DNA of 64,000 nt from Nitrospira japonica (GTDB taxonomy: Bacteria; Nitrospirota; Thermodesulfovibrionia; Thermodesulfovibrionales; SM23-35): assembly GCA_020725385.1 (NCBI GenBank), contig DYFC01000034.1:1-64000 (forward strand). The letters run 5' to 3'. Position 1 is the stretch's first letter, and every line of letters starts with the position of its first letter. A model generated the notes under the pieces. It was given only the letters and a program-made list of their open reading frames with translations. It was not told the DNA's origin and ran no database searches. The translations under genes and the position numbers were made by a program. This document shows, piece after piece, positions 13,853 to 25,294 of this stretch.

Positions 13853-16125
13853 AGAAGATTTTTATAGATAAGAGAAGACATTTAATAAGACAGAGTTTCT
13901 CTCTTTTCAAGTTTAAACAATTTTATATCCTCAAAATGATTTCGGTCATGTTCATGCTCGGAGCTTTGTTTAATTTCCTGGGTTGTGCTTCATCTGGAAA
14001 CAAATCAGGAGAGACTTTAAAACCTGTTGAGCCAGCGGTTATAACGTCTATAGATATTCAGGATCATGCAATGATAATTACTGCCAGCAAACCTTTTATT
14101 TATACAATATATAAGCCCGGTGATCCTTACAAACTAATAATCGACCTTCCCGATGTATCTGCCGGAACATTTACGAAAAAGATTGTAGCAAGAAAAAGCG
14201 GGATTACCGAAGTAAGCCCTTCACAGATCACCACACCTTCACCTCTCACAAGAATAGAGATGCTTATGCAAAGCCCTTATTCTTATGAGCAGGAATATAA
14301 AAATAATGTTCTCACTGTGAAAATAAAAGAAGAAACGCCGGCTGTAAAGGCAGAACCATTAAGCGATGTCAAAGTCACAGAACTTATTCAGGAGCAAAAG
14401 AAACCTGTTCCTGTTGTAGAGAAAGTTCCGGATATGCCTTCTGTTCCATCTGTGCCTTTGCCGGATGCAACAGAAATAAATAATATTTCTTTTGATCAAT
14501 ACGGCAGGGTTGTAAGAGTAAAGATTAAAGGTAATGGCTCGATGGTCCCGAATGTTTTTCCGCTTGAAAACAGAATTGTTATAGATATTCCGAATGTTAA
14601 GTTAAATGCAGCTATTCCTTCGGAAGTAATGTCGCCTGTAAAAGGGATTCGTTCAGGAAGATATGATGACAAAGTAAGGCTTGTTCTTGATTTACAGGAA
14701 GATACAAACTTCGATGTTGCATCGATAAGCGATTCTATAATAATCAGTCTCCGGGGACGCGGTGAAGAAATACCAACTGCCCAGATGACAAGAAACATAC
14801 TTGCCGAAACAGAGAGCGCAGAACCTGTTTCAGCGCCTGTAAAAGTGCCCGAAGCTCTTGCAGGAAGTAAATGTCAATCATATCTTGAAGGAAAAGAAAA
14901 TGTAAACTTTGATTTTCAGGATCAGGACATAGTCCCTATTCTCAGGCTTTTTGCAGACATCAGTAATTGCAATTTGTTTCTGCATCCGGAAGTTAAAGGC
15001 AAAGCCACAATGAAGTTCCGTGATGTGCCATGGAATCAGGCTCTCGATACGATACTAAAAACCTTCAGCCTTGATAAATCTGTTGAAGGAAATGTAATAA
15101 GAATAGCTCCGAATACTGTATTTACAAGAGAGAAAGAGGAGAAAGTCAAACTTCAGGAAGCTCAGGTAAAAGCCGAGCCATTGGAACAGAGAATTTATCC
15201 TGTAAGCTACGCAGATGTCGGAATAGTTGAAAGTGCTATTAAGAAAGTATTGACACCAAGAGGCAGTATCAATGTTGACAAAAGAACAAGCACAATGGTT
15301 GTAAAAGATGTTGCTACTGTTTTCCCGGAAGTCGAAAATCTTCTAAAAACACTCGACAAACCAACACCGCAGGTTTTAATAGAGGCAAGGATTGTCGAAG
15401 TTAATACAAACAGCGAACGAGAACTTGGAATCCAGTGGGGCGTTAATCTCAAGACAACAAATACACTTGCATCTATCGGCGGATTAAGCGGGGTACCTTT
15501 GCTTTCAACAGGACCTTTTACGGGTGGAAACTATCTTGTTGATTTCCCGGCAAAAGGAGTTGGTCCGTTGTCAGGTTCGGGGTTTACATTTGGGATAATA
15601 GACCCGGCGCGTTCAATAGGTCTTGATTTACAGCTCTCTGCAATTGAGACAATGGGACATCTCAAGGTTATATCAAATCCTAAGGTATTAACGATAGACA
15701 ACGGCAAAGCAAAAATACTTCAGGGCAAAAGCATTCCTGTTAGAAAACTTACAACCGAAGGCACGGTATCAACAGAATTTAAAGATGTAACTCTTGAGCT
15801 TAATGTAACTCCTCATATAACACCTGATAGATCTATTAGCATGAGTGTAGAGATTAAAAAAGAAGAACTTGACCCAACAGTTCCATCTGTTGAAGGAGTG
15901 CCCGGTACCGATAAAAAAGAAGCTAATACAAATGTAATTATAAAAGATGGCGAAACAATTGTTATTGGTGGAATGTATAAAGTTACAACAAATGATTCTG
16001 AATCAGGTGTGCCGGGGTTAATGAAAATTCCGATACTCGGATGGCTTTTTAAATCTAATAAGGTTTCATCAAATACCAGTGAATTATTGATTTTCATAAC
16101 TCCGAGAATTTTAGATAAGCAATAA
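13849..16125 (+). CDS. pilQ: Type IV pilus secretin PilQ with AMIN domains (start may be downstream)
   Basis: QVLIEARIVE, VPGL.KIPILGWLF, ELLIFITPRI secretin motifs. Confidence 0.95.
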   Translation: MKKIFIDKRRHLIRQSFSLFKFKQFYILKMISVMFMLGALFNFLGCASSGNKSGETLKPVEPAVITSIDIQDHAMIITASKPFIYTIYKPGDPYKLIIDLPDVSAGTFTKKIVARKSGITEVSPSQITTPSPLTRIEMLMQSPYSYEQEYKNNVLTVKIKEETPAVKAEPLSDVKVTELIQEQKKPVPVVEKVPDMPSVPSVPLPDATEINNISFDQYGRVVRVKIKGNGSMVPNVFPLENRIVIDIPNVKLNAAIPSEVMSPVKGIRSGRYDDKVRLVLDLQEDTNFDVASISDSIIISLRGRGEEIPTAQMTRNILAETESAEPVSAPVKVPEALAGSKCQSYLEGKENVNFDFQDQDIVPILRLFADISNCNLFLHPEVKGKATMKFRDVPWNQALDTILKTFSLDKSVEGNVIRIAPNTVFTREKEEKVKLQEAQVKAEPLEQRIYPVSYADVGIVESAIKKVLTPRGSINVDKRTSTMVVKDVATVFPEVENLLKTLDKPTPQVLIEARIVEVNTNSERELGIQWGVNLKTTNTLASIGGLSGVPLLSTGPFTGGNYLVDFPAKGVGPLSGSGFTFGIIDPARSIGLDLQLSAIETMGHLKVISNPKVLTIDNGKAKILQGKSIPVRKLTTEGTVSTEFKDVTLELNVTPHITPDRSISMSVEIKKEELDPTVPSVEGVPGTDKKEANTNVIIKDGETIVIGGMYKVTTNDSESGVPGLMKIPILGWLFKSNKVSSNTSELLIFITPRILDKQ

Positions 16126-16140
16126 AATATTTAAAAATTT

Positions 16141-16325
16141 TGTCATTCCCGGGCTTGACCAGAGAATCCAGAAAGCACGGGACTGGATTCCCCGATTAAA
16201 TCGGGGAATGACATTATTCTTGACTGTCATACCATGACGTGATCGTGGTATCCAGTGATAAAGCTTAAAAACTGGATTCTTCAATCCCGCCATGAAAACG
16301 GCGGGCAGGTAAATCGGGGAATGAC
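16141..16325. repeat. Cluster of four family-A REP-like palindromes (GTCAT-stem-CTTGA-stem-ATCCAG) in inverted pairs
   Basis: Units at 16141-16171, 16183-16213, 16225-16255, 16272-16325. Confidence 0.9.
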
Positions 16326-16374
16326 GTAAGGAAGATGTGACATCCACGATAAATTGTGGAATTTAGAGGTAATC

Positions 16375-16563
16375 TTGAAATTCAATGAACTTATAAGATT
16401 ACTCGAAGAAAATGGTTTTAGAATTATAAAAGAAAAAGGCGCAATAAGGTATTACGGAAAACCCGGATGGAAAAACTTGATCAGAGTTGATTATCATGGC
16501 TCAAAGGAAGTACCGAAAGGGACGTGTCATGCTATACTTAAAGCAGCAGGTATTAAATTATAA
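16375..16563 (+). CDS. hicA: HicA-family toxin-like protein
   Basis: TTG start after AGAGGT; ELIRLLEENGF...HGSKEVPKGT..AILKAAG pattern; upstream of hicB-like gene. Confidence 0.8.
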   Translation: MKFNELIRLLEENGFRIIKEKGAIRYYGKPGWKNLIRVDYHGSKEVPKGTCHAILKAAGIKL

Positions 16564-16582
16564 CTATGGATGGAAAAAATAG

Positions 16583-16828
16583 ATGTTAGAATTAGAATAT
16601 TCTCTAATAATAGAAGCGACGGAAGATCCGGATTTTTTTGGTTTTTATTCTCCTGAACTTGAAGGTTTCTCAGGGATAGGGCATTCTATTGAGGATTGTA
16701 TATATAGGGCAAAATGGGGAATGATAGAGCATGTGAATTTATTGAAAGAAAAAGGATTGCCTGTTCCACCTAAAAATCCTGAACCAAGAATAATAATACA
16801 GAATGAACAGGCGATGGCAACTGCTTGA
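16583..16828 (+). CDS. hicB: HicB-family antitoxin (short, no DNA-binding domain)
   Basis: YSPELEG..GIG.SIED...A...L...GLPVP HicB pattern. Confidence 0.8.
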   Translation: MLELEYSLIIEATEDPDFFGFYSPELEGFSGIGHSIEDCIYRAKWGMIEHVNLLKEKGLPVPPKNPEPRIIIQNEQAMATA

Positions 16829-16908
16829 ATAAAATTAGGAGAAGATAAATATAAATAACATTTTTTAGTTTGTCATTCTCGGGCTTGAATGGATGAGAAA
16901 GGTAATAA

Positions 16909-17038
16909 ACAACCCCCTGACCCCCTTAACAAAGGGGGAATAAGGTGTGGACAAAGGGATTGCCTTATAAATTCCCCCTTATAAAAGGGGTTTACCTTAT
17001 TATATTCCCCCTTAGAAAAGGGGGATGAAGGGGGTTGT
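16909..17038. mobile_element. Family-B MITE/REPIN-like element (ACAACCCCCT...AGGGGGTTGT), flanked by family-A remnants
   Basis: Inverted arms made of CCCCCTT-N4-AAGGGGG hairpins; homologous to loci at 20964, 21586, 23843. Confidence 0.75.
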
Positions 17039-17133
17039 AAAAGGCTTTAAATTTTTGTCATTCTCGGTCTTGACCCGAGAATTATAGTATTTTAAAAATA
17101 ATGACTAATAATTTATAAATAAAAGGGGGTAAA

Positions 17134-17751
17134 ATGAAAAGGAGTCTATTGGAAGTTTTTCTTTTCTATACTTTTATAAGCCTTATTCTAACAGGCTGCG
17201 GCGGAGGTGGTTCTGGCTCTCCCGGTTCTTCAGGAAGCGAAAGCACAGGCATACAGATAAGCGCTGTCTCGATAACAAGCGAAAAAGGACCGGATTTTGA
17301 TGTTTTTTCTGCTCCTTTAGCCTGTCCTCCGGATAATCCTACAAAATCCGAAGCCCTTTTGACAAGAGAAGATGCAACGATAACAATAGACGCAACAGTT
17401 CTTAATCCGAGCAGCACATTTGACCCTTTTCCTGCAAGCGTTGAAGAATGCACCATAACATATTTAAAAGCCCGTGAAGACCCTTCAGCCCCTGTAATAG
17501 AATCATGGAAGATATATCCAAATTGTCCAATTTATGATTCGCCTTCCAACATATGCAATGTATCATTAATCGATATTACACGTAAAAATAAATTCTGGAC
17601 GGATATAAATGATGGTATCCATGTGCCCGCAGAATACCCAACACATTATGTAGCAAAATATCACTGCAAATATATGAATAGAGTAGGAAAGTATGGTTAT
17701 TTCGATGTTGAATATGATATGTGGCTTGCAGATTTCTTAATTTGTGATTAG
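17134..17751 (+). CDS. Hypothetical lipoprotein
   Basis: Lipobox LTGC, Gly/Ser tether, Cys-containing domain; GGGGGT RBS. Confidence 0.85.
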   Translation: MKRSLLEVFLFYTFISLILTGCGGGGSGSPGSSGSESTGIQISAVSITSEKGPDFDVFSAPLACPPDNPTKSEALLTREDATITIDATVLNPSSTFDPFPASVEECTITYLKAREDPSAPVIESWKIYPNCPIYDSPSNICNVSLIDITRKNKFWTDINDGIHVPAEYPTHYVAKYHCKYMNRVGKYGYFDVEYDMWLADFLICD

Positions 17752-17759
17752 GAGGAGCG

Positions 17760-20654
17760 ATGAATAAAAAAACAATAATTGCAATTTTACTTCTTTCAAT
17801 ATTTTTATTTAATTGTGGAGGAGGAGGCTCGGGCGGGTCAAGTTCACCGGCTGGCGAGAAACCCGGAGTTCCCGAGATTGTTCAGGTTTTACCATCACAT
17901 TATATCGCTCTGACAAATTCTGCAATAATCATAAGGGCAAAGATATTGAACGGAAACGGCGGTCCTGTTAGAAATTATCCAGTCACTTTTACTAATCTGT
18001 CCCCTATTGGAACTCTTATAAATGAAAATGATGTTCCTGTAGGAAATAAAACAGTTGTAAAAACAAACAATAGCGGTCTTGCCACAATAAAAGTAAAGTC
18101 AACCATAACAGGTTTTGCGACAATAATGGCTGAGGTTGCAAAGGGTGTGGGAATCGTAAGGGATAAAAAGACAGTATATTTCAGTTCAACTCTCGCATCA
18201 CAGCCTTTCATGTATCTTGATGCAGATGCTGACAGCGATGGAACTTATAACGAGCCCTCTGATTACACATTGTTTGAAGGCGGGAATGCTTCAGACAATC
18301 AGGTCTTAATGAGAGCAACTGTTTTCAATAAATTCGGACAGCGTGTATATGGAGCTACCGTTAAGTTCGGATCAGACTATCCATATAAAGAAGGTTCATC
18401 AACAACATGTAGTGATGGAACAACTACATGCTATGTAACTTTCCCCAATGGCACTACAGCTACAACCGATTCGAACGGACAGGCTTATGTTTTGGTGCAG
18501 GTTGACCCTGTATTGAGAAATCTGATAACTGTCTTAAACATTACAGCAGTGGCAGACACAAACGGTGACGGATACGCTGATGCAGGCGGAGTTTATTCAT
18601 TATATCTTTTGCCAATAACCTTGAATTCAATCACAGTTACAGCAAGTCCGGATATAGTTGCTCCTAATGCTAAATCAACTATATCAGCGGCAGTAAAATT
18701 AAACACAGGAGGTCCTGCGCCTGATGGAACAGCTGTTGGTTTTGTAGCTGACTGTGGTTCGGTAGAGCCATTTGCTCTCACATCAACAGGGCTTGCAAAA
18801 GCAGAATTTGTTGCGCCATCAGCACCACCTTCATCAGGAACCTGCCGTGTAACAGCAACAGTTGATGGCTTAAGCAATTTTGTTGATATTACAATTTCAT
18901 CCGATCTTGTTGTTGTGCCTGATGCGCAGGTAATAAGCGGGGCATCAGGCGGAACAGTTTCATATGTAATATCAGGAGGAGTAAGACCATATACTGTAAC
19001 CTCATCAAATCGCTTTGTCGCGTGTAATAGCGAGGATACTGATTGCTCCGATGCAGAGGATTCTGGCACATGGAATATATCAACTCCTGATGGAAGCGGA
19101 AACTATATATTTACAGCAACTGTACCGCCAAACACACCTTCACAATCTGTTACATTTACAGTTATGGATGCAGTAGGCAAGACAAAAACCGCAACACTTA
19201 CAATCAATGTTGCTGCATTAACAGTTCAACCCGGAACAGTAACAATTGATGGCACAGCAGGTGGAATTGTAACCTTTACAATCTATGGCGGAGTTCCGCC
19301 ATATGATATATTTGCAAACATTGCAGACCCTGTCTTTGCTCCTAACCCTGCGCAGGTTACATCAAGCGGAAGTGCCTTCACTGTTACAGTTCCTGCAAAT
19401 ACAACTGCTAAAACGATTATATATACTGTTAGGGATGCAAATGGCGCAACAACAACAGGAACTTTGACAATATCAGCAGTAGCGCCTCCGGGATTGTTAA
19501 TAATCCCTGCAAGTCAGAGTGTTGTAGCTCCAAATACTGCAAGCTTCTCTGTTTCAGGCGGGACTGCGCCATATGTTATAACCTCTACAGATCCATCGAG
19601 TGCCTGTAATTCAACAGATGCAGACTGTTCTGATGCAGGTGATACAGGTATCTGGAATCTTGCATCAGCAGGCTCATTCACTGTTACTGTACCTACAAAT
19701 GCTGTTGCAGGAAATGTAACATTGAATGTATTCGATTCTGTAGGTGCTACAAAGAGCGCAACGTTAACTATTATTTCTGGTGGTGCTGCGTCTGCTTTAA
19801 CAATTAATCCAGCAAGTATTTCTGTAACAGGGTTAGGTCCAGATGATCCTTCTGATACTGATAAAGATGATGTTACATTTATAATTTCAGGCGGTAGCGG
19901 TTCTTATACAGTTTTCTCGTCAAATACAGCAATAGCTAAAATTAAAACTACAGGAACAAGTTCATTTACAGTTGACCCACAGCCAGTTGCCGCTACAACA
20001 GCAGCTACTTTAACAGTTGTTGATTCACTTGGTGCAAGTAAGACAGCAACAATTACTGTGACTCCATTGTCTTCGTCAATGGCTATTAACCCGAGCACAC
20101 TTGCAGTTACATCGGGTACTAATAATATTGGCTTTAACATTATAGGTGGGGTGGCTCCTTATACTGTATATTCAAGCAATACATCAGTTATTGTTTTAGA
20201 TGGCGGAGGTGGCACAGGACCATGGACAATATCTGGTAATTCTTTTACTGCTGATGCTGCGGGTGCTGGTAATGCAGTAATAACTGTTGTTGATAGTGAT
20301 GGAAAAACAGTTACTTCAAATATAACAGTGACACCTTCTGCTCAAGATTTTACACTAACGTGTGTTCCTAATGCACTTAGTATTGCTATTGGAAGTAGTG
20401 ATGTTAGTACTTGTACTGTGACTTCTTTAAATGGATTTATAAACAATGTTAATTTGAGTTGTGATGGATTACCTACTGGTGTTAGTTGTAGTTTTAGTCC
20501 TGCAATTATTGCACCTCCTCCTGCTGGTTCTTCTGATAGTAGTCTAACGATTACTATTGGTTTAGCTGCCTCTTCTGGTGTATATAATTTCAATGTTGTT
20601 GGAACAAGTGGTAGTCTTTCACATGTACAAACAATTAACTTGACAATCCCTTAA
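17760..20654 (+). CDS. Large Ig-like repeat surface lipoprotein (adhesin/invasin-like)
   Basis: Lipobox LFNC+GGGGSGG, repeated beta-rich modules (I.GG..PY.V...V.D..G), DxDxDG motifs. Confidence 0.8.
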   Translation: MNKKTIIAILLLSIFLFNCGGGGSGGSSSPAGEKPGVPEIVQVLPSHYIALTNSAIIIRAKILNGNGGPVRNYPVTFTNLSPIGTLINENDVPVGNKTVVKTNNSGLATIKVKSTITGFATIMAEVAKGVGIVRDKKTVYFSSTLASQPFMYLDADADSDGTYNEPSDYTLFEGGNASDNQVLMRATVFNKFGQRVYGATVKFGSDYPYKEGSSTTCSDGTTTCYVTFPNGTTATTDSNGQAYVLVQVDPVLRNLITVLNITAVADTNGDGYADAGGVYSLYLLPITLNSITVTASPDIVAPNAKSTISAAVKLNTGGPAPDGTAVGFVADCGSVEPFALTSTGLAKAEFVAPSAPPSSGTCRVTATVDGLSNFVDITISSDLVVVPDAQVISGASGGTVSYVISGGVRPYTVTSSNRFVACNSEDTDCSDAEDSGTWNISTPDGSGNYIFTATVPPNTPSQSVTFTVMDAVGKTKTATLTINVAALTVQPGTVTIDGTAGGIVTFTIYGGVPPYDIFANIADPVFAPNPAQVTSSGSAFTVTVPANTTAKTIIYTVRDANGATTTGTLTISAVAPPGLLIIPASQSVVAPNTASFSVSGGTAPYVITSTDPSSACNSTDADCSDAGDTGIWNLASAGSFTVTVPTNAVAGNVTLNVFDSVGATKSATLTIISGGAASALTINPASISVTGLGPDDPSDTDKDDVTFIISGGSGSYTVFSSNTAIAKIKTTGTSSFTVDPQPVAATTAATLTVVDSLGASKTATITVTPLSSSMAINPSTLAVTSGTNNIGFNIIGGVAPYTVYSSNTSVIVLDGGGGTGPWTISGNSFTADAAGAGNAVITVVDSDGKTVTSNITVTPSAQDFTLTCVPNALSIAIGSSDVSTCTVTSLNGFINNVNLSCDGLPTGVSCSFSPAIIAPPPAGSSDSSLTITIGLAASSGVYNFNVVGTSGSLSHVQTINLTIP

Positions 20655-20660
20655 TGAATA

Positions 20661-20683
20661 AGGGCGGGGAAGCCCGCCCTTTG
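20661..20683 (+). terminator. Probable intrinsic terminator
   Basis: AGGGCGGG-GAAG-CCCGCCCT then short T run just after the stop. Confidence 0.65.
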
Positions 20684-20699
20684 TATAAAACATTTGTTT

Positions 20700-20950
20700 T
20701 GTCATTCTCTGGCTTGACCAGAGAATCCAGAAGGCACGGAACTGGATTCCCGCTTTCGCGGGAATGACAAAATATAGGTGTGGATTCCTCAATCAAGTTG
20801 AGGAATGACGAATTGGATGTGACATCCATAAAAAATGGAATGACGTTTAAATGACTTGTCATTCCCGGGCTTGACCCGGGAATCCAGAATTTTCTGTCAT
20901 ACCACAATTCTCTGGTCAAGCCAGAGGGCATGCTTGATTGTGGTATCCAG
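20700..20950. repeat. Cluster of about five family-A REP-like palindromes
   Basis: Units at 20700-20730, 20742-20769, 20781-20809, 20857-20887, 20895-20950. Confidence 0.9.
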
Positions 20951-20963
20951 AGGGAAGAAAGGC

Positions 20964-21219
20964 ACAACCCCCTAACCCCCTTGACAAAGGGGGAATAGGT
21001 GTAGGGAATAACAAAGGGGGAAAGGCACAACCCCCTGACCCCCTTAACAAAGGGGGAAAGGCACAACCCCCTAACCCCCTTGACAAAGGGGGAAAAGGGT
21101 AGTGGTTAACAAAGGGGGAATAGGTTGTGGAGAAGGGGTTACCTTATAAATTCCCCCTTAAAAAAAAGGAGGTTACCTTATTATATTCCCCCTTAGAAAA
21201 GGGGGATGAAGGGGGTTGT
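20964..21219. mobile_element. Family-B element with expanded left array
   Basis: Hairpin units at 20964, 21027, 21063; inverted right arm ends at 21219. Confidence 0.75.
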
Positions 21220-21221
21220 TT

Positions 21222-21692
21222 ATGAAGCTTTATTACAACCCAAAACTAAAATCTCTTTCAAGAGAACTAAGAAAAAAAGGGGTTCTTTCAGAAGCATTAT
21301 TATGGAACTACTTAAAAGGCAGAAAATTGAGAGGCTATTTATTTACAAGACAAAAACCTATTGGAAATTATATAGTAGATTTTTTTTGTAGCAAACTCAA
21401 ATTAGTTATAGAGATTGACGGGGTAAGTCATGACGGTAGATACGACTATGATGAAGAAAGAGAAAAGTATCTCAAATCATTGGGATTAAAAATATTAAGG
21501 TTTAACGATACTGATGTTAAAAAAGATATAAGAAATGTATTAATAGGTATTGAAGGTTGGATTGAAAGAAAGGAAAAGGGAGTAAACAACCCCCTGACCC
21601 CCTTAACAAAGGGGGAAAGGCACAACCCCCTGACCCCCTTAACAAAGGGGGAAAGGCACAACCCCCTGACCCCCTTAACAAAGGGGGAATAG
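21222..21692 (+). CDS. DUF559 / Vsr-like PD-(D/E)xK endonuclease domain protein
   Basis: SEALLW, RQKPIGNYIVDFFC, VIEIDG.SH, LG..ILRF motifs; C-terminus is NPLTPLTKGE x3. Confidence 0.88.
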   Translation: MKLYYNPKLKSLSRELRKKGVLSEALLWNYLKGRKLRGYLFTRQKPIGNYIVDFFCSKLKLVIEIDGVSHDGRYDYDEEREKYLKSLGLKILRFNDTDVKKDIRNVLIGIEGWIERKEKGVNNPLTPLTKGERHNPLTPLTKGERHNPLTPLTKGE

Positions 21693-21763
21693 GGTAGTGG
21701 TTAACAAAGGGGGAATAGGTGTTGACAAAGGGTATGCCATTATGAATTCCCCCTTTGTTAAGG
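21586..21763. repeat. Family-B array: three tandem 36-bp units plus partial inverted arm
   Basis: ACAACCCCCTGACCCCCTTAACAAAGGGGGAA at 21586, 21622, 21658; TTCCCCCTTTGTTAAGG at 21747-21763. Confidence 0.9.
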
Positions 21764-21810
21764 TGAAATAGCAACATATGAATTTACTTTACTTATAAAG
21801 GAGTGGAGCC

Positions 21811-23787
21811 ATGAAAAAATATTTCTGCGTTTTTATATGCCTATTCATCGTATTATCAGGCATTCAAGCCTTTGCAGGCAATTCTTCAGAAAATGTAACC
21901 ATAACCAAACCTAAAATAACTGTGGATTCAATTCTTGGAGAATTAAACAAAGGCAAATATGTTCAGGGTGAACTCCTTGTTAAATTCAAATCAGGCGCTT
22001 CGAAACAAACGTCTCAGGCAATTCATCAGTCATTAGGCGCAAAACTAATTAAAAAGTCAGCTATACTTGAAAATGTTGAACGTGTAAAGCTTCCCTCTGG
22101 TTTATCTATAAAAGATGCAATTATTCAATATATGTCAAATCCAGATGTTGAGTATGCATCTCCTATTTTCATCAGAAAAGCTTCTGGAATCAGCAAACTC
22201 ATGCCCGATGATCAGTTCTTCAGGGACCAATGGGCTTTAAGGAATACCGGGAAATATGCATATGGAACAAAAGGTGCTGATATTGATGCAACATATGCAT
22301 GGCGTGTTTCAACCGGAAATTATGGAATAGTAGTAGCTGTTATCGACACCGGTATTGATTATACCCATCCTGACCTTGCTTCTAATTTATGGAGAAATAA
22401 TGCAGAATGTAATGGTACAGCAGGTGTTGATGATGATGGCAATGGTTTTATTGATGACTGCACAGGATGGAATTTTGTAACATGCGAGGAATGGGGTGAT
22501 TCGGGGTGTCTTTATCCAACGACCGGAAATAATGACCCTATGGATTATTACGGTCATGGAACACATGTGGCAGGAATTATTGGAGCAATCGGAAACAATG
22601 GTGTAGGCGTGACAGGGGTGATGTGGAGAGCCCGAATAATGCCTGTAAGGGTCTTAAATCAATATGGTGAAGGTGATGATTCAGATATAGCAGAAGGTAT
22701 TAAATATGCTGTTGACAATGGAGCAAAAGTTATAAATGCGAGTCTTGGCGGCTACGGGACAAGTCCTGTTCTGGAAGATGCAATGAATTATGCGTATTCA
22801 CACGGCGTTCTTTTTGTTGCAGCAGCGGGGAACGAGTCAAATAATAATGATATAAATCCTTTCTATCCGGCAAGCTATTCATATGCAAATATAATTTCAG
22901 TGGCTGCAACAGATCAGGATGACCTTAGGGTTCAATTTAGCAATTTTGGTTATAGCTCTGTTGATGTTGGAGCTCCGGGTGTTTATATCATAAGCACCGT
23001 GCCAACATGGTGGGCTGATTATTATGGTTATGGTTATCTTGAGCATTTTGCAGGAACTTCAATGGCAGCGCCTCATGTTAGCGGTCTTGCAGGGCTTTTA
23101 TATTCATACTACGTTAATTTTGACTATAGTCAAATAAAGAATATGATTATGAGTTATGTAGATGTACTTCCATCGTTGGATGGCTGGGTTTTTTCAAGAG
23201 GAAGAATAAATGCATTCAGCTCAATGTCTGCCTTATGGGAGCCTTTTGATCTTAAATTGAAAATAAAAGGTTCATATGTTGAGCTTAAATGGACTGATGT
23301 TGCGCATGCCGAGCAATATACGCTTGTTGAACGTAAGACAGAAGGCGGAACATATGTTACACTTGCGACATTAGGCGCAAATGTAAATTCATATACAGAC
23401 ACTTATGGAATATCTGAAGGTGTTAAATATACATATCGCATTAGACTTAAAAATCAGATCGGCGAAACACCGGGACATCCTGATAATGAACGCTCTATTT
23501 CAACCGGTTTGATTGCGCCATCAGGGCTTAGAGCAACTGCACTGTCTAAATCAAAAGTAAAACTAACGTGGTTTGATGGTTCGGGTTCTGAAAAAGGCTT
23601 TAAAATATACAGGCACAATGGAACAGGTTCTTATATACATATAAAAACAGTTGGCAAAAATGTAACTTCATATACTGATAAGAAACTTGCCACAGGAACA
23701 AAGTACTGGTATCAGGTAAAAGCGTATAATGACTCGGGAGATTCTGATCCGTCAAATGAGGCAGAAGTTACAACCTCAGCCAAGTAA
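21811..23787 (+). CDS. Secreted S8 subtilisin-like serine protease with C-terminal FN3 domains
   Basis: Signal peptide, VAVIDTG, HGTHVAG, GTSMAAP catalytic triad motifs. Confidence 0.93.
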   Translation: MKKYFCVFICLFIVLSGIQAFAGNSSENVTITKPKITVDSILGELNKGKYVQGELLVKFKSGASKQTSQAIHQSLGAKLIKKSAILENVERVKLPSGLSIKDAIIQYMSNPDVEYASPIFIRKASGISKLMPDDQFFRDQWALRNTGKYAYGTKGADIDATYAWRVSTGNYGIVVAVIDTGIDYTHPDLASNLWRNNAECNGTAGVDDDGNGFIDDCTGWNFVTCEEWGDSGCLYPTTGNNDPMDYYGHGTHVAGIIGAIGNNGVGVTGVMWRARIMPVRVLNQYGEGDDSDIAEGIKYAVDNGAKVINASLGGYGTSPVLEDAMNYAYSHGVLFVAAAGNESNNNDINPFYPASYSYANIISVAATDQDDLRVQFSNFGYSSVDVGAPGVYIISTVPTWWADYYGYGYLEHFAGTSMAAPHVSGLAGLLYSYYVNFDYSQIKNMIMSYVDVLPSLDGWVFSRGRINAFSSMSALWEPFDLKLKIKGSYVELKWTDVAHAEQYTLVERKTEGGTYVTLATLGANVNSYTDTYGISEGVKYTYRIRLKNQIGETPGHPDNERSISTGLIAPSGLRATALSKSKVKLTWFDGSGSEKGFKIYRHNGTGSYIHIKTVGKNVTSYTDKKLATGTKYWYQVKAYNDSGDSDPSNEAEVTTSAK

Positions 23788-23842
23788 CGTAATTTACTTA
23801 TTAGTTTGTCATTCTCTGGCTCGACCAGAAGAGAAGGGTGTG

Positions 23843-24135
23843 ACAACCCCCTAGCCCCCTTGACAAAGGGGGAAAGGCACAACCCCCTAACCCCCTTAAC
23901 AAAGGGGGAAAAGCACAACCCCCTAACCCCCTTGACAAAGGGGGAATAGGGTAGTGGTTAACAAAGAGGGAATAGGTGTAGGGAATAACAAAGGGGGAAT
24001 AGGGTGCATGAAAAGGGAATGCCATTATAAATTCCCCCTTAAAAAAAAGGGGGTTACCTTATTATATTCCCCCTTAAAAAAAAGGGGGTTACCTTATTAT
24101 ATTCCCCCTTAGAAAAGGGGGATGAAGGGGGTTGT
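23843..24135. mobile_element. Family-B element with both arms expanded
   Basis: 36-bp units at 23843, 23879, 23915; 35-bp tandem units at 24031 and 24066; right arm ends GTTGT 24135. Confidence 0.75.
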
Positions 24136-24153
24136 AAAAGCCTTTAAAATTTT

Positions 24154-24271
24154 GTTGTTCTCGGGTCCTCTGGTTCCACCAAACAAATGGCGGACAAGCA
24201 AGTCAAAGGGCGTGCTTGATTGTGGTATCCAGAAACCTTGAAACTGGATTCCCGCTTTCGCGGGAATGACA
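24154..24271. repeat. Family-A REP pair, left unit carrying nested insertions
   Basis: 24154-24232 composite unit and 24244-24271 CTGGATTCCCGCTTTCGCGGGAATGACA. Confidence 0.8.
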
Positions 24272-24305
24272 GAAAAAATTTCGAATAACAAAAATGGTTT
24301 TAAGT

Positions 24306-24824
24306 CTATTTTTTAAGTTTTGCTATCAAATCCCTTACCTTTGAAGCATCCGGCGCATTAGGTGAAATTGCAAGATATTGCTCGAATTCTTTTACTGCTT
24401 CGGATTTTTGTTTGAGATCAAAAGCCAGAACTACTCCAAGATTTCTATGGGCATTTGCATGATTGGGATTGATTGAAATGGCTTTTCTATATTCTTCAGC
24501 AGCTTTATCCGGTTTTCCGATGCTTCTGTAACATGTTCCCATATCAACCCTTACATCAACATTATTGGGGTCTATTTCAAGGGCTCTGCTATAGGCATCA
24601 ATAGCATCGGCAAAACGATGTGTATCCATATAAATATTTCCAAGTTCAATTTGTGCATTTACATCTTTGGGATTCTGTCTTATTGATTCTTTAAGTTGAA
24701 AAATCTTATTTTCCAGGACCGGAGAGGTTGAAGGAACTTGAGAATAGGTTTTTGTATCTTCTTTTTTCTTACAGCCAGTCACTATTAGAAATGAAATAAA
24801 AAATATTATTAAAAATTTTTTCAT
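24306..24824 (-). CDS. TPR-repeat lipoprotein
   Basis: Lipobox VTGC; repeated LG..Y...A...Y..AL.I.P TPR motifs. Confidence 0.9.
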   Translation of the reverse strand: MKKFLIIFFISFLIVTGCKKKEDTKTYSQVPSTSPVLENKIFQLKESIRQNPKDVNAQIELGNIYMDTHRFADAIDAYSRALEIDPNNVDVRVDMGTCYRSIGKPDKAAEEYRKAISINPNHANAHRNLGVVLAFDLKQKSEAVKEFEQYLAISPNAPDASKVRDLIAKLKK

Positions 24825-24976
24825 AGCACTCTCCTCACTTGTTAAAAATTTTATTATTTTACCTCAAATAATAAGATTATTGCATAACATCCTATATCCG
24901 CAGAACCTTAACCCGATTGAGATTTGGTCTTGACAAATAGATTTAGATTTGATATTAAAAAGGAAAGGGGCGGGAG

Positions 24977-25294
24977 ATGTTTAAGTATGAGGAGACGACC
25001 TATTTGGAAAAGAGGTTTATCGAACAGAGAAAGCATCTGCGTTATCCCTTTAACTATGCAATAAAATATACTATTGCACCGATATTGGATGAAAATTATT
25101 CAACAGGAATAATATCAAATATCAGTAGTTCCGGAATGTGTCTTTATACTTCCTGTGCCCTTGTTAAGGGTCAGGAAATAATTTTCAGGACGATCCTGCC
25201 AACTTTTTACAAAAAGGCAATAGTGCGTTGGTGTGAAAACACAGATAGAAATTTCTGGAAATCCGGCCTGGAATTTATCCATAGTAATAATTAA
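24977..25294 (+). CDS. Stand-alone PilZ-domain protein
   Basis: QRKHLR (RxxxR) and NISSSG (D/NxSxxG), VRW, GLEF. Confidence 0.85.
   Translation: MFKYEETTYLEKRFIEQRKHLRYPFNYAIKYTIAPILDENYSTGIISNISSSGMCLYTSCALVKGQEIIFRTILPTFYKKAIVRWCENTDRNFWKSGLEFIHSNN

What the first reader, a model, noticed from the sequence alone, without database searches (positions are those of the whole stretch)
20964..21763. DUF559 nuclease bracketed by and fused with its own hairpin repeat family: candidate non-RAYT REP/MITE system
Seen: the gene core lies between perfect 13-bp inverted ends AGGGGGTTGTTTA (21210-21222, supplying a G-rich RBS and the A of ATG) and TAAACAACCCCCT (21583-21595). The frame runs through three 36-bp units (NPLTPLTKGE x3) before stopping. 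Gene-less elements with the same arms occur at 16909 and 23843 with variable unit numbers (10 left-arm units in the window). Established: DUF559 is a Vsr-like PD-(D/E)xK fold of unknown role; RAYT genes are flanked by their REPs in a similar way. Inference: DUF559 nicks the CCCCCTT-N4-AAGGGGG hairpins and drives their spread or expansion, as an autonomous/non-autonomous pair.
Basis: partly seen in the sequence, partly recalled or inferred. Interest (0 to 1): 0.78.

Follow-up and report, generated by a model that had tools for sequence, protein, structure and literature searches.

The report
Nuclease gene boxed in by hairpin repeats
A small DNA-cutting enzyme gene of unknown role (DUF559) sits exactly between two inverted copies of a short fold-back DNA repeat, and the same gene-plus-repeat package recurs in many bacterial phyla, so it looks like an undescribed selfish, mobile gene cassette.

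Summary
ORF 21222-21692 is the genome's only DUF559 (Vsr-fold) gene. It lies between inverted copies of a ~33-nt unit, ATT-CCCCCTT-N4-AAGGGGG-N3-4-GGGGGTTGT, and reads through three perfect 36-bp copies of it. It has three blocks (C, G, G/T), the layout of published intrastrand-triplex repeats.

In this genome the family is tiny: 14 units, 13 of them inside 7 kb. It is therefore not a genome-wide REP family here.

The pairing is general, however.
- Homology to three other genera begins and ends at the outer edges of the arms (21185-~21617).
- Two congeners lack the gene at the orthologous site.
- Arm-type units lie at 44 of 80 homologous loci from at least 15 phyla, about 80 times background.
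- Flank inverted repeats beat all same-locus controls in 55 of 77 loci.
- Arm type follows the protein tree.

The closest solved folds are 3HRL and the homing endonuclease I-Bth0305I.

Best reading (0.5): a mobile nuclease cassette that acts on its own repeats, analogous to REP/RAYT or homing but with a different enzyme. Nuclease action on the repeats is inferred, not shown. The scan has noted the same pairing before on other DNA, and I found no paper describing it.

The parts
21185..21219 (+). Left arm U of the cassette: ATT-CCCCCTT-AGAA-AAGGGGG-ATGA-AGGGGGTTGT. It is a hairpin plus a third G/T block. Its G-run lies 7-11 nt before the ATG and could serve as the ribosome-binding site.
   Evidence: As single-stranded DNA it folds at -8.4 kcal/mol, z -2.5. 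The identical 30-mer occurs at 17007 and 24104. Cross-genus homology starts here.
21222..21692 (+). DUF559 (Vsr-fold, EDxHD-type) nuclease ORF of 156 aa. The conserved core is about residues 1-120 (21222-21581). Residues 121-156 are translated repeat.
   Evidence: Pfam PF04480, E 1.1e-32. It is the only DUF559 match in the genome. It carries all 18 invariant columns of a 45-sequence alignment. The AF2 core has pLDDT 84-96 and the tail is below 50. Foldseek: 3hrl, E 4.5e-8, TMt 0.92; 3r3p, prob 1.0, TMt 0.70.
21586..21618 (-). Right arm U', the reverse complement of U: ACAACCCCC-TGA-CCCCCTT-AACA-AAGGGGG-AA. It overlaps the 3' end of the ORF.
   Evidence: Cross-genus homology ends at about 21616-21617.
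21586..21689 (-). Tandem array of three identical 36-bp U' units, read through by the ORF.
   Evidence: TRF: period 36, 2.9 copies, 100% matches.
21690..21766 (+). Truncated remainder of a repeat element: G-block modules and a degenerate hairpin, ATTCCCCCTTTGTTAAGGTG. It has no terminal GGGGGTTGT.
   Evidence: direct reading.
20964..21184 (+). Upstream repeat element body: three U' units (20964, 21027, 21063), 27-bp G-block modules, and two 35-bp hairpin units (21133-21200). It ends in the cassette's arm U.
16909..17038 (+). Gene-less element: one U', one G-block module, 35-bp hairpin units, then U. The arms face outward.
23843..24135 (+). Gene-less element: three U', 27-bp modules, 2.5 copies of the 35-bp hairpin unit, then U. 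It lies in a ~510-bp block of repeats (about 23790-24300) that is absent downstream of the S8 peptidase gene in congener G005.

Best explanation
Window 21185-~21617 is an intact copy of a compact (~435 bp) 'DUF559 cassette'. It is a Vsr-fold nuclease gene whose start and stop abut two inverted copies of a ~33-nt three-block motif. The motif is a C-block, a complementary G-block, and a G/T-block that mirrors the G-block. It can form a hairpin and, on paper, a purine-motif intrastrand triplex.

The cassette is a discrete unit that moves over evolutionary time and across phyla together with its arms. Here it has landed in, or seeded, a local cluster of the same motif, present as tandem 36-bp arrays and two gene-less elements.

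Proposed mechanism (inferred). The nuclease recognises the motif, or the pseudo-palindrome formed by two converging motifs, and breaks DNA there. Repair that copies from a cassette-bearing site, as in homing, spreads the gene. The same breaks would promote duplication and array expansion of the motif.

Shown: architecture, linkage, boundaries, presence/absence at orthologous sites, multiple diverged copies in unrelated contexts, and fold.
Inferred: that the enzyme is active, that the motif is its substrate, and the copying mechanism.
For: 1. Boundaries. BLAST matches of the gene in G017, G012 and G007 span query positions 244-678, that is, from U to U'. In the four-genus alignment, conservation starts at ATTCCCCCTT and ends at AAGGGGGA, and the flanks are unrelated (G017 context).

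2. Presence or absence. The orthologous intergenic region (Ig-like gene to S8 peptidase gene; S8 identity 66% and 83%) is about 120 bp with no unit in G004. In G005 it holds a gene-less U'...U element and no gene.

3. Other DUF559 clades in relatives show cassette-length homology of 368-564 bp at 84-93% between copies in one genome (G011, G024, G007). Between genera the values are 86% and 98%, the 98% pair over only 323 bp of a fragmentary copy. Flanks are unrelated on the sides examined.

4. Many copies are fragments or carry stops: G007 has 19 matches, G011 has 11 and G024 has 10.

5. Generality.
- Of 119 homologs, 48 have C-terminal tails that translate a whole U', 54 translate its first block, and 17 neither. 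Eleven of 16 N-terminal extensions translate U.
- At 80 loci from at least 15 phyla, a generic three-block detector finds an upstream unit in 25 of 77 assessable loci, a downstream unit in 36 of 80, either in 44 and both in 17. This detector hits only the 13 known units in the whole 64-kb window. Background is 28 units in 363 kb.
- The flank-to-flank inverted repeat beats all 40 same-locus controls in 55 of 77 loci.

6. Arm type follows the protein tree: 14 changes, against a minimum of 16 and a mean of 22.7 in shuffles, with 0 of 1000 shuffles reaching 14 (49 rows). The window's nearest relatives (Nitrospirota, Actinomycetota, Fidelibacterota) share its poly-G arm type.

7. Gene-less inverted doublets GGGGGTTGT-N-ACAACCCCC occur at 5 loci in 4 of 57 family genomes. 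Four of the five have exactly 17-bp spacers (a further 17-bp case with a mismatch is).

8. Fold. The profile hits 3hrl at E 3.4e-26 and I-Bth0305I (3r3p) at E 1.4e-3; Foldseek agrees. I-Bth0305I is a homodimeric homing endonuclease with a pseudopalindromic target (abstract of PMC3239194).

9. There is no methyltransferase or defence gene nearby. The neighbours are pilNOPQ, a lipoprotein, an Ig-like protein, an S8 peptidase and a TPR protein.
Against: - No enzymology exists for any member of this clade.
- In this genome the unit family is tiny (14 units, 4 loci). No recent movement is visible: public contigs gave no joint across the gene, which is uninformative.
- G005 has 22 units but no arm-flanked DUF559 in its assembly. 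G013 and G018 have one unit each and no DUF559.
- G000 also carries 13 other three-block units, among them five of a CCCCTCT type, with no cognate DUF559.
- 36 of 80 loci had no unit by my detector, and 22 of 77 had no significant flank inverted repeat.
- Genome-level co-occurrence is modest: 9 of 11 unit-bearing genomes against 13 of 30 unit-free genomes have any DUF559, Fisher p 0.03. The genomes are kin, so they are not independent.
- A hydrolytic nuclease cannot by itself join DNA, so host repair must be invoked.
- No target-site duplication was seen.
- A DUF559-domain protein in Caulobacter (VsrA) has been linked to cytosine-methylation-related damage rather than to mobility (passage of PMC12907096).
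Confidence: 0.5

Rival explanations
1. The arms are only cis-acting signals, such as a ribosome-binding site, a terminator or transcript-stabilising hairpin, or a recombination handle. They travel with a nuclease gene whose real substrate lies elsewhere, for example mismatch or modified-base repair, or defence. Gene-less units would then be leftovers of decayed cassettes, not products of the enzyme.
For: - The G-run of U sits at ribosome-binding-site distance from the ATG.
- U' is a stable hairpin at the 3' end of the gene.
- Many decayed DUF559 copies exist in relatives.
- Caulobacter VsrA, which has a DUF559 domain, acts in a methylation-linked damage pathway (passage).
- PADLOC gives weak hits to methyl-directed restriction enzyme and DpdF models, E 0.002-0.007.
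Against: - The third G/T block, conserved in all 14 units and in other clades' arms, has no role in a ribosome-binding site or terminator.
- Units occur as tandem arrays and as fixed 17-bp-spaced inverted doublets, some with unrelated spacers. Simple gene decay would not produce these.
- G005 has 22 units, more than decay of a single-copy gene explains.
- No methyltransferase is nearby.
Confidence: 0.2
2. The units are an independent host REP-like family moved by something else, for example the RAYT-like Y1 protein or replication slippage. They merely pile up around DUF559 because it sits in permissive, repeat-rich intergenic DNA.
For: - This stretch is a repeat sink. A second family (TTGTCATTC...) has 28 + 32 copies genome-wide and is interleaved with the units.
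- The genome has one RAYT-like gene.
- Units exist in genomes without a detected DUF559.
Against: - The junctions are precise and conserved across genera and phyla.
- Arm type tracks the protein tree rather than the host phylum.
- Cassette-length homology has unrelated flanks.
- The RAYT-like gene is flanked by a different repeat that has only those 2 copies.
Confidence: 0.1
3. The inverted arms serve as crossover sites for inversion of the gene segment, making an invertible switch, rather than for transposition or homing.
For: A systematic screen lists 'DUF559 domain-containing protein' as 14.3-fold enriched among gene families near predicted programmed inversions (table passage of PMC9881135). 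The arms are perfect 13-bp, and up to ~33-bp, inverted repeats.
Against: - There is no recombinase gene nearby.
- No inverted joint appeared in the public contigs laid, which is weak evidence.
- Inversion would not explain different genomic contexts or gene-less units.
- The enrichment in that screen may simply reflect the flanking inverted repeats.
Confidence: 0.05

Closest known systems
REP / REPIN elements with their RAYT (REP-associated tyrosine transposase) gene (Bertels & Rainey 2011, PMC3116915; I saw only the search listing and the starts of abstracts)
   Same: - A short hairpin repeat in extragenic DNA.
- It occurs as singles, inverted doublets with a spacer, and clusters.
- A single-copy gene is itself bracketed by inverted copies of the repeat.
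   Different: - The enzyme is a Vsr-fold PD-(D/E)xK hydrolase, not an HUH/Y1 transposase. PF01797 is not matched by this ORF.
- The repeat has a third block.
- The gene-plus-arms unit is found in several diverged copies per genome and in many phyla. RAYT systems are described as single-copy and vertically inherited (abstract starts).
EDxHD homing endonucleases, prototype I-Bth0305I (Taylor et al. 2011, PMC3239194; abstract read)
   Same: The Vsr-like catalytic fold is shared (profile E 1.4e-3; Foldseek prob 1.0, TMt 0.70). It is a selfish nuclease gene. Its target is a pseudopalindrome, which invites the analogy with the converging arms here.
   Different: I-Bth0305I sits in a group I intron of a phage recA gene. 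It is multidomain and has a ~60-bp footprint. The gene here is free-standing and intergenic, has a core of only ~120 aa, and is bracketed by structured repeats.
Intrastrand triplex motifs (PIT, BoxC, TMECO; Holder et al. 2015, PMC4666352; abstract, sections 15-16 and passages read)
   Same: The same three-block layout: C-stem, loop, G-stem, short loop, second G-rich stem. The repeats are abundant, conserved and without a known function or partner. The authors state that they never found transposase or integrase remnants near TMECO sites.
   Different: - The sequence differs: CCCCCTT/AAGGGGG/GGGGGTT against CCCTCNCCC/GGGNGAGGG/GGGNGAGGG.
- The stem is 7 nt, which is in their noisy range.
- No link to DUF559 appears in the text searched (0 hits for endonuclease or nuclease).
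- In E. coli K-12 the DUF559 gene ycjD does run into a degenerate unit, and a canonical TMECO lies about 170 bp downstream.
Vsr and Vsr-like repair nucleases, including Caulobacter VsrA (CCNA_02930; PMC12907096, passage), and NGO0050 (PDB 3HRL)
   Same: The same fold and family. 3HRL is the best solved relative, with 42% identity over the aligned core.
   Different: There is no partner cytosine methyltransferase here. Nothing in what I read of those papers mentions flanking repeats.

Membership tests
Pfam DUF559 (PF04480), Vsr-like PD-(D/E)xK | Profile match above the curated cut-off | tested here: met
   112.6 bits against a cut-off of 20.6, residues 8-110. NCBIfam PRK09767 (the YcjD equivalog) scores 79.7 bits, below its cut-off of 218, so this is the same family but not the same equivalog.
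Pfam DUF559 (PF04480), Vsr-like PD-(D/E)xK | Restriction-endonuclease-like fold as in 3HRL | tested here: met
   AF2 core pLDDT 84-96. Foldseek to 3hrl: E 4.5e-8, TMt 0.92, rmsd 1.4.
Pfam DUF559 (PF04480), Vsr-like PD-(D/E)xK | Conserved acidic and His residues of the active site | tested here: met
   The window protein carries all 18 invariant columns of the 45-sequence alignment. These include D53, D66 and H70, and it also has the near-invariant E64. That these are the catalytic residues is recalled from the family literature, not tested here.
EDxHD homing endonucleases (I-Bth0305I) | Vsr-like catalytic domain | tested here: met
EDxHD homing endonucleases (I-Bth0305I) | Gene resides in a self-splicing intron or intein | tested here: not met
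   The gene is free-standing between an Ig-like protein gene and an S8 peptidase gene. No Rfam intron family reaches threshold in 16000-25000.
EDxHD homing endonucleases (I-Bth0305I) | Cleaves the gene-less allele, and the break is repaired from the occupied allele | not testable with these tools
   Needs enzyme assays or crosses.
REP/REPIN-RAYT | Short palindromic extragenic repeat in many copies | tested here: inconclusive
   There are 14 units at 4 loci in this genome. G005 has 22 and G012 has 11.
REP/REPIN-RAYT | Inverted doublets (REPINs) | tested here: inconclusive
   There are none with a spacer of 30 bp or less in G000. Five loci in 4 of 57 family genomes have them, four with 17-bp spacers.
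REP/REPIN-RAYT | The associated gene is a Y1/HUH transposase | tested here: not met
   The ORF is DUF559. The genome's RAYT-like gene lies elsewhere and has different flanks.
Intrastrand triplex motifs (ITxF class II / TMECO) | Three consecutive blocks, C-stem, G-stem and mirror G/T-stem, with short loops | tested here: met
   All 14 units match, while the backwards-read control gives 0 in 41 genomes. The generic detector finds only these 13 in the window.
Intrastrand triplex motifs (ITxF class II / TMECO) | Match to the TMECO consensus | tested here: not met
   The block sequence differs.
Intrastrand triplex motifs (ITxF class II / TMECO) | Forms a triplex in vitro | not testable with these tools
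   The folding tool models hairpins only.
IS / MITE | Transposase of a known class, and target-site duplication | tested here: not met
   The cassette holds no transposase domain. No duplication was seen at the four cassette pairs whose borders were compared.

The most novel reading that the evidence does not exclude
DUF559 nucleases are the long-missing partner enzymes of bacterial intrastrand-triplex and hairpin repeats, a class that includes E. coli BoxC/TMECO with YcjD. Enzyme and repeat together would form a new kind of mobile element. In it, a ~120-aa structure- or palindrome-specific Vsr-fold nuclease propagates itself and its repeats by break-induced copying. The element would have lineage-specific arm sequences that co-evolve with the enzyme, and it would occur across at least 15 phyla.
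Probability: 0.35. Interest if true: 0.85.

Novelty: new variant of a known kind. Interest (0 to 1): 0.7.

Why it matters
DUF559 is a very large orphan family that includes E. coli YcjD. Triplex-type repeats such as BoxC, PIT and TMECO are a published puzzle with no known mobilising activity.

A consistent physical pairing of the two gives each a testable function: a defined substrate for the enzyme, and a candidate driver for the repeats. It would add a hydrolytic-nuclease analogue to the REP/RAYT and homing-endonuclease paradigms. A ~435-bp unit would also be among the smallest gene-carrying mobile cassettes known.

For annotation, it explains the odd Pro/Gly-rich heads and tails on many predicted DUF559 proteins as translated repeat.

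Tried and rejected
- Public runs. Only Logan contigs were available and no RNA holder was listed. The contigs break at the repeats. The joints seen (for example 20722 to 20964, and 21695 to 21133) correspond to the other copies of the elements in the genome. No contig joined 21219 to 21586. One run lacked cover over the gene body. None of this is evidence either way.\n- Homodimer prediction for residues 1-120: no answer.\n- Rfam over 16000-25000 at E <= 1: five chance-level hits, all far below gathering scores.\n- PADLOC: only weak hits, E 0.002-0.007.\n- Look-up of earlier scan notes by the protein's DNA: nothing found.\n- E. coli natural experiment. 3346 of 5426 genomes hold at least 80% of the fabI-ycjD-sapF stretch. 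The rest are interrupted there, and I did not resolve empty against filled sites.\n- Exact alignment of the G000, G005 and G004 intergenic regions outside the ribosome-binding-site region. They are too diverged to define an insertion point to the base.\n- The idea that the 17-bp spacer, or the AAAAGGCTTTAAA flank of gene-less U, is a remnant of the gene's 5' end. By eye only about 8 of 11-14 positions match, which is not convincing.\n- The promoter and terminator scan gave consensus matches only.\n- Chance as an explanation is rejected.
Full report
WHAT IS THERE

The window is contig C31:1-64000 of a 2.46-Mb, 71-contig assembly with 34.7% G+C. Earlier scan notes call it an uncultured anaerobic Nitrospirota.

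The ORF from ATG 21222 to TAG 21692 encodes 156 aa. It matches Pfam DUF559 at E 1.1e-32. It is the only DUF559 match in the genome.

The hairpin CCCCCTT-N4-AAGGGGG occurs 13 times in the window, with none expected by chance.

ANATOMY, CORRECTED

There is therefore one ~33-nt unit, which I call U and U'.

The unit has three blocks:
- a pyrimidine block, C5TT;
- its complement, AAG5;
- a third block, G5TT, which is the mirror of the purine block with A replaced by T.

All 14 hairpins of the genome carry the third block. The same pattern read backwards has no match in any of 41 related genomes. This is the layout of a purine-motif intrastrand triplex. It is the same layout as the published TMECO/BoxC motif, CCCTCNCCC-N3-6-GGGNGAGGG-N3-GGGNGAGGG (PMC4666352, section 16), with a different sequence. 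As plain hairpins the units fold at -8.4 to -9.0 kcal/mol, z -2.5 to -3.5. Triplex formation cannot be tested here.

The gene-less elements at 16909-17038 and 23843-24135 read U'(x1 or x3), then G-block modules, then 35-bp hairpin units, then U. Their arms face outward. The gene sits between a U on its left and a U' on its right, so its arms face inward. The locus can therefore be parsed in two ways: as element, gene, truncated element; or as a cassette U-gene-U' embedded in more repeats.

WHICH PARSE IS BIOLOGICALLY MEANINGFUL

Comparison with relatives favours the cassette.
- DNA matches to the gene in three other genera (G017, G012, G007) span query positions 244-678, which is from the first base of U to the last of the first U'.
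- In the four-way alignment, conservation begins at ATTCCCCCTT (window 21185) and ends at AAGGGGGA (about 21617). The flanks are unrelated.
- In G017 the cassette lies 16 bp after the stop of an outer-membrane-receptor-like gene and just before an unrelated gene.
- The G012 copy has frameshifts. The G007 copy carries a 65-bp insertion of a different three-block unit inside the ORF.

PRESENCE AND ABSENCE

The S8 peptidase gene downstream has orthologs at 83% identity in G005 and 66% in G004, with the Ig-like repeat protein gene upstream in both.
- In G004 the intergenic region is about 120 bp, with no unit and no DUF559.
- In G005 it holds a gene-less, partly degenerate U'...U element and no DUF559.
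- Downstream of the peptidase gene, G005 runs straight into the next gene. G000 instead has about 510 bp of repeats, including the 23843 element.

Both the units and the gene are therefore additions in the G000 lineage, or losses elsewhere.

SIZE OF THE FAMILY HERE

The genome has 14 units: 13 within 7 kb of this window, and one partial element upstream of a gene on C33. In this genome it is not a dispersed REP family.

The array next to the gene is the most homogeneous. Its three copies are 100% identical, against 96% and 94% for the other two arrays. The three U copies are identical 30-mers. Both points suggest recent local amplification or conversion.

My generic detector finds 27 three-block units genome-wide. 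Fourteen are of this type. The rest include five of a CCCCTCT type with no cognate DUF559.

GENERALITY

The best homologs are 60-71% identical. They come from metagenomes and from MAGs labelled Nitrospirota, Brocadia, Planctomycetota, Proteobacteria and others.
- Tails. Of 119 homologs, 48 end in a translation of a whole U' (NNPLTPFSKGE, KQPPSSPFVKGE and similar), 54 in a translation of its first block (for example NTTP or KQPP), and 17 in neither. The frames differ, so the tails are DNA-level repeats and not a protein domain.
- Heads. Eleven of 16 N-terminal extensions read MKGVV or ..KGG..GG, which is translated U.
- Fold of the tail. In the AF2 model the window's tail (residues 126-156) has pLDDT below 50, while the core is confident.
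- Other clades. Other DUF559 clades in the same bacterial family are flanked by other three-block units: CCCCTCTTT/AAAGAGGGG, CCCTCTCCC/GGGAGAGGG (TMECO-like), and CTCCTCTTA/TAAGAGGAG.
- Wider survey. I took the 80 best of 595 confirmed loci in one-genome-per-species contigs. They come from at least 15 named phyla, including two candidate-phyla-radiation groups. A unit in the right orientation lies within 90 bp upstream in 25 of 77 assessable loci. One lies within 120 bp downstream in 36 of 80. Either is present in 44 of 80 and both in 17. Background is 28 units in 363 kb, an enrichment of roughly 80-fold per base.
- Independent of the detector. The best inverted match between the upstream and downstream flanks beats all 40 same-locus control windows in 55 of 77 loci, where about 2 are expected.
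- Missed arms. Some arms that the detector misses have a small extra hairpin inside the second loop.

DO THE ARMS TRAVEL WITH THE GENE?

On an 81-protein tree, arm type changes 14 times among 49 typed rows. Shuffled labels need at least 16 changes, with a mean of 22.7, and 0 of 1000 shuffles reach 14. The tree is poorly resolved (4 starred branches), and kin share labels. Even so, the poly-G type spans at least 7 phyla, and the window's nearest rows (Nitrospirota, Actinomycetota, Fidelibacterota) all carry it.

Copies within one genome (G011 at 93% over 564 bp; G024 at 89% over 461 bp; G007 at 84% over 368 bp) and between genera (86% over 520 bp; 98% over 323 bp, this last pair being a fragmentary copy) share cassette-scale or shorter homology. 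Their flanks are unrelated on the sides examined. In clade B there is an extra outer inverted repeat, GGTTCTTCAG...CTGAAGAACC, and no target duplication.

Several relatives hold many fragments and stop-containing copies. That is the usual debris of a selfish element.

GENE-LESS FORMS IN RELATIVES

Three forms occur:
- single units, 22 in G005, where they are modules of a larger composite repeat;
- converging pairs with about 88-bp unrelated spacers;
- tight doublets GGGGGTTGT-N-ACAACCCCC at 5 loci in 4 of 57 family genomes, four of them with exactly 17 bp between the arms.

Some of the 17-bp spacers resemble each other and resemble the AAAAGGCT... flank of U in G000 and G005. The doublet is the REPIN-like form. 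In the cassette, the gene occupies the position of the spacer.

THE ENZYME

A profile of 45 homologs hits PDB 3HRL (NGO0050) at E 3.4e-26. It hits 3R3P, the catalytic domain of the homing endonuclease I-Bth0305I, at E 1.4e-3. Foldseek ranks the same two first.

The PD-(D/E)xK survey groups Vsr, DUF559 and DUF2726 with 1cw0, 3hrl and 3r3p (PMC3424549, table passage). The window protein keeps every invariant column of the alignment.

I-Bth0305I is a homodimer whose specificity centres on a 14-bp pseudopalindrome across the cut (abstract). By analogy, two converging arms would offer such a target. That is inference.

RIVALS

The genome's one Y1 gene is RAYT-like (NF047646, 71.9 bits, just under the cut-off of 80). 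It is flanked by its own direct repeat, which has only those two copies, and not by U.

The neighbourhood holds pilNOPQ, a lipoprotein, an Ig-like protein, the peptidase, a TPR protein and an OmpA-family protein. It contains no methyltransferase, restriction gene or recombinase.

The remaining alternatives are that the arms are mere expression signals, that the units are an independent host repeat, or that the arms form an inversion switch. These are weighed in the Rival explanations section. The third block, the arrays, the fixed-spacing doublets and the tree-linked arm types argue against the first two.

LITERATURE

- A full-text search for 'DUF559' found 25 papers, 22 listed. I read the DUF559 passages in four of them. 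None links the family to flanking repeats.
- One screen lists DUF559 proteins as 14-fold enriched near predicted programmed inversions. The flanking inverted repeats described here would explain that.
- 'Intrastrand triplex' plus 'bacterial' found 14 papers. Holder et al. 2015 say they never found transposase or integrase remnants near TMECO sites. Their text has no hit for endonuclease or nuclease.
- 'ycjD' found 21 papers, 15 listed, none on repeats by title.
- As a spot check in E. coli K-12, the DUF559 gene ycjD ends inside a degenerate unit (..CCCTCTCCC TGA..). A duplicated remnant of its 3' end follows. A canonical TMECO matching Holder's pattern lies about 170 bp downstream.

Supplements were not available. 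I did not see the pairing described in any of these.

EARLIER SCAN NOTES

The scan has flagged the same pairing on other DNA many times: 737 notes hold the search words. One of them (e1-2571381) gave me the triplex lead, which I checked against the sequence and the paper.

VERDICT

The REP/RAYT-like analogy is apt as 'works like', but membership fails because the enzyme class is wrong. In this genome the system is small and local. The general DUF559-plus-three-block-arm cassette is well supported as a mobile unit. That the nuclease acts on the arms remains to be shown.

Noticed in passing
window 16140, 16870, 17055, 20699, 20856, 23806 (+ strand); 20762, 55532 (- strand): A second, more abundant repeat family (TTGTCATTCYC..GGCTTGACC..GAATCCAGA, itself a hairpin) has 28 + 32 copies of its 9-mer core genome-wide. 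It is interleaved with the U elements. The intergenic stretches 16126-17133, 20655-21221 and 23788-24305 are almost entirely nested repeats.
   Followed up: partly
G000 contig C2:72732-73295 (- strand), outside the window: A RAYT-like Y1 gene of 188 aa (NF047646, 71.9 bits, cut-off 80). It is flanked on both sides by a ~55-nt direct repeat containing the hairpin GTCAAGAACRGTCTTGA. That repeat has only these two copies in the assembly.
   Followed up: partly
window 20744-20768 and 24248-24270: Hairpins ATTCCCGCTTTCGCGGGAAT, with 7 + 7 copies genome-wide. This is a third small repeat family in the same intergenic regions.
   Followed up: no
G000 C21:49 and 811, C29:59999, C31:89406, C69:706: Five three-block units of another type (CCCCTCTATCAAGAGGGG...GGGGTGT) occur in a genome that has no second DUF559 gene. 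They are orphan units.
   Followed up: no
L004 (G007:C87), alignment A2 columns ~280-346: A decayed copy of the same cassette carries a 65-bp insertion of a different three-block unit (..CCCCTCC..GGCGGGG..GGGTGCGGGG) inside the DUF559 reading frame.
   Followed up: no
L010 (G011:C342) and L137 (G007:C153): DUF559 cassette fragments 98% identical over 323 bp sit in MAGs of two different genera, with unrelated flanks. This points to recent transfer or to cross-binning.
   Followed up: no
L043 (G007:C116:2500-4500): A DUF559 ORF has no stop before the signal peptide of the next, very large gene, giving an open frame of 2324 aa. It is a read-through of cassette into neighbour, not a domain fusion by design.
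   Followed up: no
L051 (E. coli K-12 NC_000913 1351100-1351800): The 3' end of ycjD (DUF559) runs into a degenerate TMECO-like unit. A duplicated ycjD 3' remnant follows, and a canonical TMECO lies ~170 bp downstream. 2080 of 5426 complete E. coli genomes do not hold 80% or more of the fabI-ycjD-sapF stretch in one place.
   Followed up: partly
L011-L021 (G005, several contigs): In the congener G005 the same U unit is a module of a longer composite repeat. That repeat also contains tandem AACGCTATAACGCAA-type and CTTCAGCCTAAAGCC-type runs, and it often lies near contig ends.
   Followed up: no
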